Shown here: one piece after another, positions 7,114 to 10,100 of the stretch
Layout of the letters: each line of letters opens with the position of its first letter
How positions within the stretch are numbered: the stretch's first letter is position 1
DNA from: Lingula anatina
Taxonomy: Eukaryota > Animalia > Brachiopoda
Direction of reading: 5' to 3'
DNA length: 64,000 nt
Assembly (NCBI GenBank): GCA_051362555.1
Contig: CM120645.1
Span: forward strand, 17,112,001 to 17,176,000
Notes under the pieces: generated by a model
The model's database searches: none
What the model saw: the letters and a program-made list of their open reading frames with translations, nothing else
Told to the model about the DNA's origin: nothing
Translations under genes and position numbers: made by a program

Positions 7114-10100
7114 GTGTGTGCTTATTATTATATATATTTATATATATGTTGTGCCTTTGAACAAACCACTTTTAGTGTAGTCTTTTGGTTAATTCATCTG
7201 TTGTTGGATCTCAGATCCAAGTTACCCGAAATAAACATAATAGAACTTAATTTGATTTTTAATTGTGATTGACGGGGACAAAATGTTGTTTTGCTTTAAA
7301 ACCATGTTGAATTATAGACCCTCCTTTTTTATAGCCTAAGAAGGAAAACTGATAGAGAAATTACACAGTGCCTATGATTCCATTTCTTGGTCCTTTTTAT
7401 TGATGTCCAGCATTACAACAGTCAAATTAACTTTAGAGCATTTTTTTTAGCTCAAACCTTTCCAATAATGTTCTCAGTAGAATTCAATTTTTTGTCTTCA
7501 ACATGGACACTTGTGTTTTTTGTTATGTGCCATTTATGACAATCAATAAACCATAAAGCAGCAAATGAAGAGAAATGGCCAAGTTTCTCTCCCTTGAGAT
7601 GTATGAAACTTTATGATTTCTTGTTTGCCTTCTATGTGTTGCAATTTATTGGCATTTTTTAACGACTAATTCATTAAAATGGGTGCTCTCGTCATGGCTA
7701 TTATGAAGGGAAAGCCACTGGATCAATAAGTTGTTCTTAAATAACACGTTCCTGATCTGACTGGAACCCTGGGAATGTGGGATGAACATCGAAGGATTCA
7801 AATTTGAAGCTTCTGGAAACATATTGCTACCTGAGGGAACATTGAAGTAAAGATGCTTTCCAATACAAGGAAAAACCAAGAAAACTAGGTGTTTTGCATC
7901 TTAACTTTTAAAAAGATGTGCCATATTATTTAAAATAATGCAATGATATAATAATATATATACTAGTAATAATAAGTGTGGGAATGAAATAATTTTCGTG
8001 TGGATGCTTGCATGGTACCCTGGGAGTTCATCGTTCCTTGTTTGTCTGTGATAATAAGAAGCATGCGTGCATATAAGACTGGTGCAGTGTCATGCAGTGC
8101 GTCATGTACTTCAGGTCACATATTTGTGAAACTTGCTATACATAAATATAGTATTAACTAGTCGAAACCAGGGCTCAGAATCTCGAAAGGTTCGCTATGT
8201 TGCTCACACGCTCTAGCATGGCTAGCGTGCGCTATCCCGTATCTCGAAAGAATTGCTATTTTGAGCGCCTGCGCTAGCATGGCTAGCGTGCGCTATCCCA
8301 TATCTCGAAAGCTTCGCAAATCCCGGCCGTGCGCTAATGTCCAAATCGCCATTAGTTTCGAGGCTATTATTTGCGGCGATACAAACTAGTCGCAAAGGCC
8401 TCTGCATATGCAAAATTCGTCATTTTAATGTGTCTTTCATGTAATTAAACATGGTGGCAAGTTTGGGTTGCTAGTCATAATAGCATATAATAAAACATAT
8501 AACAAAAACATGGAAGCTTTTAATTGATTGAATCACTGGTACCTCTGATAGAAAAACTTGCGGTAAATATTCACGTGAAGAATGCCAAAGTCATATTTTA
8601 TTATGCAGAAAAATTTCAAAATTAAACATTTCATACATCATTTTATATTTTCTGGTGAATTTCATTCATCTGTGTAGTCTATTGATAATAATAATAAATT
8701 TAAAAGTGTCATTTTCCACACAAAATGAAAAAGCAGAAACAAAGCATTCGGCCGCACCGTGACCTTCCTCAATGTCTATTATTGTGAGACTGAACACTAC
8801 TCACCATTGTGTCAGTAATTGTGTCAGTCCAAGCTTCGCTTATTGAATTGTTTTTTGACATTTTATTGGTGTCAAATACTTCAAATATCAGTATTTGTAA
8901 TTATGATATTCCTATAAATAAAAACAACCTCTTGATTTGCGTCATGGTGAAAAAAATTGCATTTTGTGTAATTGTGTTATGACGTCTTCACTTTATGCGG
9001 CAATCGAATATTAGTAGAGTTTGAGGTTATAATTGCGTTGCGTCTGCTAAGGCTTCGAGATAGCAGGTGGGTGCAATCGCACTAGCAAATAGCGCACGCT
9101 AGCTATGCTATAGCGCGTGTGCAACATAGCGAACCTTTCGAGATTCCGAGCCCAGAGTTGCAATATGATGAAAAACTGGTCATGGTTTCAAATCAAAATT
9201 CTGCTCATAATGTTCATTTAGTAAGGAGAATAATTAAATGTTGTGGTTATTTATAATTTTTACCAACGTTTTTCTTTATTTCTTTATTTTTTACCATCAG
9301 GTAGGGAAGTGTCATATGTACAAAAGAAGAAAACAGTGTACCCAGAATGGAACACATGTTTTGATGCACACTTGTATGATGGAAGAATGATACAGTTTAT
9401 GATAATGGAAAAACAAGACACTGAAACTAAACAGGTTGCAGAATTAAGCATATTGGCCAAAAAATTATTGCCTCCAAGGGGCGAAAGCATAACTGATAAA
9501 TCGGTAAGTGGGGTTCACCACCCGTGCTTGGATGTTTATGATATTTTATAGTTGTTTGCTAAAATATGGTGCTGGTTTTTTTCTTACAGGACGTCCAGTT
9601 CAGTATGTGCAGAAGAAAAAAAGTATATACCCAGAATGGAACACTTGTTTTGATGCCCATCTATATGAAGGGCGAATGATTGAGTTTGCTGTAATGGAGA
9701 GGGGGGCGAGTGACAATCCAAGCTCGTCCAAAGTTTTTGCTCAGGCTCAGCTCTCTGCACAATCCTTAGCTGACATGTGTCGAGACAATGCAGAGAAGAT
9801 CTGCAGCACTGTGGTAAGTGGTGACAAGTGTGGACAGCTGTCTGTCTGTCACCTTTCCACTACTTCTACTGCAACTGAGAACCCCTCTCTTCGAGTGACC
9901 TGGCTGTTTGTAAATGTACAACTCACTAGCATTCTGTGTGACTTGGTATTTGCTTATTAACTCTTTCTTTTTCACTGAGCTGTTGCAGTCTCATATGTAA
10001 ACTTGTTGTGTGGAAGATATTACATCATTCAGAAAAACACTTGAGATTCAGGAGTAATTCACATTATAAGAAAAAGAAAACAAGATGATGCAGTTTTTTT

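What the first reader, a model, noticed from the sequence alone, without database searches (positions are those of the whole stretch)
9301..9813. Tandem duplicated, apparently mutually exclusive C2-domain exons in PKC-delta
Seen: two paralogous exons (203 and 224 nt) only 86 nt apart. Both are open, both have good acceptors and GTAAGT donors, and both are phase 1 to 0, so including both or neither shifts the frame. The first halves are conserved at amino-acid level with many synonymous changes ([20 protein letters not shown][D/E]GRMI); the second halves diverge. Established: the PKC-delta C2-like domain mediates phosphotyrosine and anchoring-protein binding. Inference: a splice switch giving two targeting specificities from one nPKC gene; I do not know of this being described for PKC-delta.
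Basis: partly seen in the sequence, partly recalled or inferred. Interest (0 to 1): 0.72.

Follow-up and report, generated by a model that had tools for sequence, protein, structure and literature searches.

The report
Swappable C2 exons in brachiopod PKC-delta
A lamp-shell (Lingula) signalling kinase gene has two old side-by-side copies of one exon and splices in one or the other, giving two enzyme versions that share the phosphotyrosine-pocket residues but likely differ in how they dock to partners; automated gene models already list both versions.

Summary
The window is the Lingula anatina PKC-delta gene. Exons A (9301-9503) and B (9590-9813) are tandem paralogues, and RefSeq already lists them as isoforms X2 and X1.

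RNA reads show mutual exclusion: exon1>A 12, A>exon3 14, exon1>B 24, B>exon3 14 reads, with no A>B joint listed (listing needs 3 reads per run). A-junction reads came from 2 of the 4 runs, both from a diverged lineage.

The duplication is old and both copies are constrained (pS 0.86, pN 0.15). No second exon appears in the isoform records of 19 mollusc and annelid species, so the pair looks lineage-restricted.

The 'two targeting specificities' idea is untested. The K48/H62/R67 phosphotyrosine residues are the same in both exons; the differences lie in the loop, strand and helix matching the mammalian pseudo-RACK region. Steric exclusion is marginal, since the likelier branch point is 59 nt from the donor.

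Nine literature searches found no description. The scan's notes hold nothing on this pair, only similar pairs in insect classical PKC and otoferlin. Verdict: real, a new member of a well-known class, modest interest.

The parts
6990..7113 (+). First coding exon of PKC-delta (C2 strands 1-2), shared by both isoforms; ends in phase 1
   Evidence: its 3' end is the loose-end consensus in front of both A and B
9301..9503 (+). Alternative exon A (RefSeq isoform X2, XP_013379149.1, 690 aa); encodes C2 strands 3-7 and the helix; the faster-evolving copy
   Evidence: (exon1>A 12 reads, A>exon3 14 reads)
9504..9589 (+). 86-nt intron between the copies; far the shortest in the gene (others about 295 nt or more); never seen spliced out, covered unspliced by about 2-4 reads in X7, X8 and X9
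9515..9521 (+). 7-nt element complementary to B's donor (+5 to +11) and partly to A's own donor; possible competing pairing, speculative
   Evidence: (shuffle p 0.001, found post hoc)
9558..9563 (+). Likelier branch-point candidate (A9562: 27 nt from the acceptor, 59 nt from A's donor); a second candidate A9541 lies 38 nt from the donor
   Evidence: motif scan; not mapped experimentally
9590..9813 (+). Alternative exon B (RefSeq isoform X1, XP_013379141.1, 697 aa); has the longer strand 5-6 loop and keeps the helix cysteine; seen in all 6 runs laid
   Evidence: (exon1>B 24 reads, B>exon3 14 reads)
9814..9866 (+). Predicted hairpin covering B's donor; prediction only
   Evidence: z -1.56; -15.3 kcal/mol; one constitutive donor of the gene scores -16.9
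13257..13317 (+). Shared downstream exon (end of the C2 domain)
   Evidence: loose-end consensus behind 9503 and 9813
6990..33776 (+). Whole PKC-delta coding region: 15 coding exons per isoform (C2, pseudosubstrate, C1A, C1B, kinase)

Best explanation
The Lingula PKC-delta gene splices in either exon A or exon B, giving two full-length kinases whose C2 domains share the phosphotyrosine-pocket residues but differ in the strand 5-6 loop, strand 6, helix and strand 7, which likely tunes partner docking or autoinhibition. Shown: the two exons, both splice paths, no A>B joint at this read depth, an old duplication with both copies constrained, and identical pocket residues. Inferred: (1) double inclusion is prevented mainly because the 86-nt intron splices poorly (short, marginal donor-to-branch distance, donors predicted to be paired), with nonsense-mediated decay clearing frameshifted leaks; (2) the A:B ratio is regulated between tissues or states; (3) the swapped surface changes protein partners, by analogy with the mammalian pseudo-RACK and pseudo-MARCKS segment (residues 71-83 and 75-80) that falls where A and B diverge. 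The duplication probably arose on the brachiopod or Lingula branch.
For: Junction reads: exon1>A in X7 and X8; A>exon3 in X7 and X8; exon1>B in X7, X8, X9 and X5; B>exon3 in X7, X8 and X5. One search adds B>exon3 in X1 and X4. No 9503>9590 joint is listed in either call. RefSeq X1 and X2 differ only by this exon. Between the paralogues pS is 0.86 and pN 0.15, and A is still open with intact splice sites. In the diverged lineage (X7-X9), B has 6 of 7 differences synonymous (p about 0.001) and A 2 of 3; A's difference density (3 of 203 nt) is below that of the flanking introns (8 of 157 nt, p 0.048). A has about twice B's depth in X8, is about equal in X7, is no higher than intron background in X9, and is zero in X1 and X5. 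Both isoforms model as an 8-strand C2 sandwich, with pLDDT mostly 85-93 over the exon. The mammalian docking and autoinhibition segments come from PMC10743673 passages and section 4.2.
Against: There are no functional data at all. Read depth is low, and up to 2 A>B reads per run would go unlisted. A-junction rows come only from X7 and X8 (one study, a lineage 2-3% diverged in these exons); runs close to the window show A reads only in X4 (depth 1.2-1.6, no A junction among the rows shown; 39 loose-end rows were not shown). The ratio difference between samples is only suggestive (p 0.03 to 0.25, depending on unlisted reads), and the tissues are not known. A's own 2-of-3 synonymous count is not significant (p 0.09-0.16). 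The mammalian pseudo-RACK sequence is not conserved in invertebrate PKC-delta, so the analogy is positional only. Models built on homologue alignments tend to fold anyway. The likelier branch point is 59 nt from the donor, above the 50-nt steric rule (PMC5740500 passage).
Confidence: 0.6

Rival explanations
1. Mutual exclusion is real, but the two proteins are functionally equivalent. Both copies are kept only under the constraint to fold a working C2 domain, and the divergent second halves have drifted at tolerant positions.
For: All named functional residues of the pocket are identical. A keeps 25 and B 26 of 35 columns conserved in at least 70% of 26 homologues, so both have drifted similarly. 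No second exon appears in 19 other species' records, so the pair is not generally needed.
Against: Two redundant copies kept until synonymous sites saturated is unexpected without distinct roles. The A:B ratio seems to vary between samples. Tandem-exon substitutions are often tissue-specific in human (PMC9741552 abstract passage).
Confidence: 0.25
2. Exon A encodes a partly impaired or de-repressed C2 domain. It acts as a low-function or constitutively open variant rather than a retargeted one, and its second half is under relaxed selection.
For: A's branch is about twice B's (1.11 against 0.57 changes per column), and A lacks the helix Ala, Lys and Cys kept in 88-96% of homologues. The one amino-acid difference in the diverged lineage falls in that helix region (9464, Lys to Asn).
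Against: A is the major form in X8, has fewer differences than the introns, and models with the same strands and high confidence. B also lost the near-invariant Lys and the terminal Trp.
Confidence: 0.13
3. The pair is an assembly artefact (two haplotypes placed in tandem) or a dead pseudo-exon.
For: The assembly has a duplicated record of this gene's 3' part on another scaffold (XP_013381247.1).
Against: Synonymous sites are saturated, so the copies are not alleles. Reads from a separate lineage cover A, the 86-nt intron and B without a gap, and both exons are spliced to the same neighbours.
Confidence: 0.02

Closest known systems
RefSeq Lingula anatina PKC-delta isoforms X1 (XP_013379141.1) and X2 (XP_013379149.1)
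   Same: They are these two products exactly.
   Different: Database gene models only; no paper describing them or their function was found in 9 searches.
Tandem duplicated exon substitutions in classical PKCs: human PRKCB, Drosophila Pkc53E, C. elegans pkc-2
   Same: A PKC gene using homologous tandem exons one at a time, arisen convergently (PMC9741552 passage and supplement).
   Different: Those are classical, calcium-dependent PKCs, and the paper files the human and fly events under different regions. PRKCD, PRKCQ and PRKCE had 0 hits in the one supplement file held, which may not be the complete human list.
Mammalian PKC-delta splice variants (I to IX)
   Same: One PKC-delta gene making several isoforms.
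   Different: The variants described in PMC8248728 passages insert 78 bp at the caspase site (II, V, VII; VIII is the human homologue of II) or lack the C2-like domain (IV-VII). None described there swaps a homologous C2 exon.
FYN FynT/FynB and OGDH 4a/4b mutually exclusive exons
   Same: Tandem homologous exons tuning binding or regulation of one enzyme (PMC9741552 and PMC7969005 passages).
   Different: Those have demonstrated functions, and in OGDH mapped branch points 25-41 nt from the donor. Here nothing is mapped, and the likelier branch candidate is at 59 nt.

Membership tests
Tandem-duplicated mutually exclusive exons | Adjacent homologous exons covering the same protein region | tested here: met
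Tandem-duplicated mutually exclusive exons | Same reading frame and splice phases, with usable splice sites | tested here: met
   both phase 1 to 0, AG/GT sites
Tandem-duplicated mutually exclusive exons | Each exon joined to the common upstream and downstream exons in RNA | tested here: met
   12 and 14 reads for A (2 of 4 runs), 24 and 14 for B (4 and 3 of 4 runs)
Tandem-duplicated mutually exclusive exons | Exon-joining reads absent, or joint inclusion frameshifts | tested here: met
   no A>B joint listed (3-read threshold); joint inclusion stops at codon 139
Sterically enforced pairs | Branch point under 50 nt from the upstream donor | tested here: inconclusive
   candidates at 38 and 59 nt; an AG at 9550 lies behind the first, and the base after it differs in the diverged lineage; threshold from PMC5740500
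RNA-structure-enforced pairs (docker/selector type) | Conserved, competing intronic pairings | tested here: inconclusive
   pairings predicted but weak against controls; no second genome for covariation
Novel PKC, delta/theta group | N-terminal delta-type C2, then pseudosubstrate, tandem C1 and AGC kinase domains | tested here: met
   kinase region closest in identity to PKC-theta structures, 60-68%
PKC-delta phosphotyrosine-binding C2 | Lys48, His62 and Arg67 equivalents present | tested here: met
   alignments to 1BDY; triad named in PMC12655620
PKC-delta phosphotyrosine-binding C2 | Actual binding of phosphotyrosine peptides | not testable with these tools
   needs a binding assay
Ancient, broadly conserved exon pairs | Both copies present in distant relatives | tested here: not met
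   0 of 19 other species show a paralogous exon in 56 isoform records; searches gave no A-specific relative (best about 65% identity). Protein records only; no animal genomes could be searched

The most novel reading that the evidence does not exclude
This is a tissue-regulated splice switch in the C2 domain of a novel-class PKC. It swaps the anchoring and autoinhibitory face while holding the phosphotyrosine pocket constant, and is enforced by competing RNA pairings at the two donors. One brachiopod gene would thereby do what vertebrates did by duplicating PKC-delta and PKC-theta, giving a natural swap experiment that maps which C2 surface sets targeting.
Probability: 0.2. Interest if true: 0.5.

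Novelty: new member of a known kind. Interest (0 to 1): 0.3.

Why it matters
It adds a novel-class PKC, and the C2 domain, to the PKC genes that convergently gained swappable duplicated exons. If the isoforms differ in partners, the pair isolates the surface that sets PKC-delta targeting with everything else held constant. Its reach is limited: the class is well known, the isoforms are already in RefSeq, the pair seems confined to one lineage, and Lingula has few experimental tools.

Tried and rejected
No whole genome is held for this window, and the genome collections on hand are prokaryotic or viral, so relatives were examined only as protein records.

One search listed no indexed RNA holder; 9 raw-read runs with the same species label were offered and 6 were laid (X1, X4, X5, X7, X8, X9). 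In one search, intron repeats crowded the tables, 2 joint rows were dropped near a repeat in X9, and 39 loose-end rows were not shown, so one search used the exon region alone.

Dating the duplication failed. A+B form a group only at support 79/10 and 81/51, and grouping the unnamed sister protein P0002 with A or with B is not rejected (p-AU 0.31 and 0.36).

Docker/selector search: none of the 25 longest of 85 inverted repeats stood out as a docking pair, and the 86-nt intron and the A-donor region fold no better than shuffles (z 0.05 and 0.01).

The fold search was dominated by the kinase domain and says nothing on C2. Multi-stretch hits P0186, P0229 and P0152 are unrelated repeat proteins. 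bioRxiv 10.1101/620633 (passages) concerns KIBRA splicing, not this. Look-ups in the scan's notes by sequence and by place returned nothing.

Full report
Observation. Joined to the first coding exon (6990-7113) and the next exon (13257-13317), either one gives an open frame. Both together stop at codon 139, and neither stops at codon 43. Each exon matches Pfam PKC_C2 at about 60 bits, and the only solved structures hit are the PKC-delta and PKC-theta C2 domains.

Identity of the gene. A homologue search returned Lingula anatina PKC-delta isoform X2, whose sequence matches the window's exons letter for letter and uses exon A. Its cluster holds isoform X1, 697 aa, which uses exon B and maps to 15 coding exons from 6990 to 33776. 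Both products are thus already in RefSeq as gene models.

RNA evidence. Nine raw-read RNA runs with the same species label were offered and six were laid, each read only in part (about 6 to 30%). On 9230-9900, reads leaving the stretch continue into exon 1 or exon 3 with 99-100% agreement. The counts are exon1>A X7 6, X8 6; A>exon3 X7 5, X8 9; exon1>B X7 3, X8 10, X9 8, X5 3; B>exon3 X7 8, X8 3, X5 3. One search adds B>exon3 in X1 (4) and X4 (3). No A>B joint was listed; a row needs 3 reads from 2 start places, so rare events are not excluded. A junctions were seen only in X7 and X8, which come from one study and a lineage differing from the window at 2-3% of sites in these exons. Among runs close to the window, X4 has A depth 1.2-1.6, and X1 and X5 have none.

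Usage appears to vary: A has about twice B's depth in X8, is level in X7, and is no higher than intron background in X9. The test on 5' junctions gives p 0.03 to 0.25 depending on unlisted reads, and the tissues are unknown, so this is suggestive only. In X7-X9 the 86-nt intron and the bases before A carry about 1-6 reads while the intron after B carries none. That fits RNAs already spliced B>exon3 whose upstream intron, containing A, is still in place. It also suggests the short intron is not readily removed.

Age and selection. Over the first 36 codons, pS is 0.86 (saturated) and pN 0.15. The duplication is therefore old, and both copies were constrained, since a neutral copy would have lost its frame. 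Between the window and the diverged lineage, B shows 6 synonymous of 7 differences (p about 0.001; one of the 7 is polymorphic) and A 2 of 3 (not significant alone). A's density, 3 of 203 nt, is below the 8 of 157 nt of flanking intron (p 0.048); B's is not significantly so (p 0.17). A is the longer branch (1.11 against 0.57) and has lost the helix Ala, Lys and Cys. B keeps the Cys but has a loop 7 residues longer than most homologues. Both lack the terminal Trp found in 26 of 26 homologues (one further row was dropped because its exon end was not recognised).

Distribution. I compared 56 isoform records from 19 other species (18 molluscs and the annelid Owenia). Eighteen species show one sequence for this exon, and Crassostrea virginica shows two that differ by one residue; 0 of 19 show a paralogous exon. 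Left out were fragments, unnamed records and species with one record, and only 15 of 26 and 15 of 61 members of the two largest clusters were listed. Searches with exon A or the N-terminus of X2 found no relative above about 65% identity. The closest full-length relative, unnamed P0002, is sister to Lingula (SH-aLRT 100), and only one exon version of it is on record; the trees cannot say whether its lineage split before or after the duplication. These are protein records, not genome searches, so an unannotated second exon elsewhere is possible.

What the swap changes. In the models the exon spans C2 strands 3 to 7 and the helix, and both isoforms give an 8-strand sandwich with high local confidence, apart from B's loop (pLDDT 65). 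This is weak evidence, because the homologue alignment drives the fold. Aligned to 1BDY, Lys48, Tyr52, His62, Tyr64 and Arg67 are kept in both exons. PMC12655620 (passages) names Lys48, His62 and Arg67 as the phosphotyrosine site, and PMC9352922 (passages) describes the domain's protein-binding role. Divergence begins just after strand 5, where PMC10743673 (passages and section 4.2) places the mammalian pseudo-RACK (71-83) and pseudo-MARCKS (75-80) segments. The deltaV1-1 segment (8-17) is in shared exon 1. The best reading is tuning of docking or autoinhibition with the pocket held constant. It is inferred by position only, since the mammalian loop sequence is not conserved in invertebrates.

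How exclusion is enforced. Three candidates remain. (1) Frameshift with decay: the frameshift is certain from the sequence; decay is inferred. PMC5740500 (passages) reports lengths not divisible by three in 60% of human clusters. (2) Steric block: the intron is much the shortest in the gene (others about 295 nt or more), but the more conventional branch candidate is 59 nt from the donor, above the 50-nt rule, and the candidate at 38 nt is weaker (OGDH comparison in PMC7969005 passages). (3) RNA structure: B's donor is predicted to sit in a hairpin (-15.3 kcal/mol, top 1% of intron windows), and 9515-9521 can pair with either donor. However, a constitutive donor of the same gene scores -16.9, the folding z-scores are modest (-1.56 and -1.82), and the match was found post hoc. 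I favour poor splicing of the short intron backed by decay; none of this is shown.

Comparison with what is known. Tandem-duplicated, mutually exclusive exons are an established class, and classical PKCs gained them convergently (PRKCB, Pkc53E, pkc-2; PMC9741552 passages and one supplement file). The mammalian PKC-delta variants described in PMC8248728 (passages) alter the caspase site or lack the C2-like domain. Nine full-text searches (listings and abstract starts only, apart from the papers named here) found no description of a duplicated C2 exon in a novel-class PKC or of this Lingula pair. The library lacks most subscription papers, and supplements and splicing databases were largely unseen. 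The scan's notes list similar pairs in insect classical PKC and invertebrate otoferlin (unchecked), none for this gene.

Verdict. A real, RNA-confirmed, old and apparently lineage-restricted mutually exclusive exon pair, already present in gene models, with an untested functional consequence. New member of a known kind; interest 0.3.

Noticed in passing
window 52724-53338 and 61269-61862 (+): Two PARP catalytic-domain reading frames, 71% identical over 162 aa; they look like tandem-duplicated PARP-like genes.
   Followed up: partly
window 8171-9153: 65-nt inverted arms, 92% complementary and 853 nt apart, ending about 150 nt before exon A's acceptor. Reads from other loci pile up here, so it is probably a mobile repeat. 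An effect on A's splicing was not tested.
   Followed up: partly
window 11303-11970 and 10094-10129: A 23-nt tandem repeat with 29 copies and a 36-nt T run in the intron after exon B.
   Followed up: no
window 9230-9589: RNA from runs X7-X9 (oligo-dT libraries) covers the bases before exon A and the 86-nt intron but not the intron after B. This could be a late-spliced intron or a start site inside the intron.
   Followed up: partly
window 9501-9503 and 9811-9813: Both copies end in a residue other than the Trp found at this place in 26 of 26 homologues, including the closest relative P0002.
   Followed up: partly
window about 6912: Reads of X7 (12) and X9 (9) continue into an upstream untranslated exon; a 14-base probe of it found no match in the window with up to 2 mismatches.
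   Followed up: partly
protein P0010 (XP_013381247.1): A 401-aa Lingula record on another scaffold that by eye repeats the C-terminal part of this kinase; probably a duplicated haplotype in the assembly.
   Followed up: no
proteins P0006, P0007, P0011, P0012 (Owenia) and mollusc isoforms: Owenia PKC-delta has two alternative hinge segments and an optional insert after C2, and several bivalves have optional short inserts between C2 and the pseudosubstrate. Other lineages seem to vary different parts of the gene.
   Followed up: no
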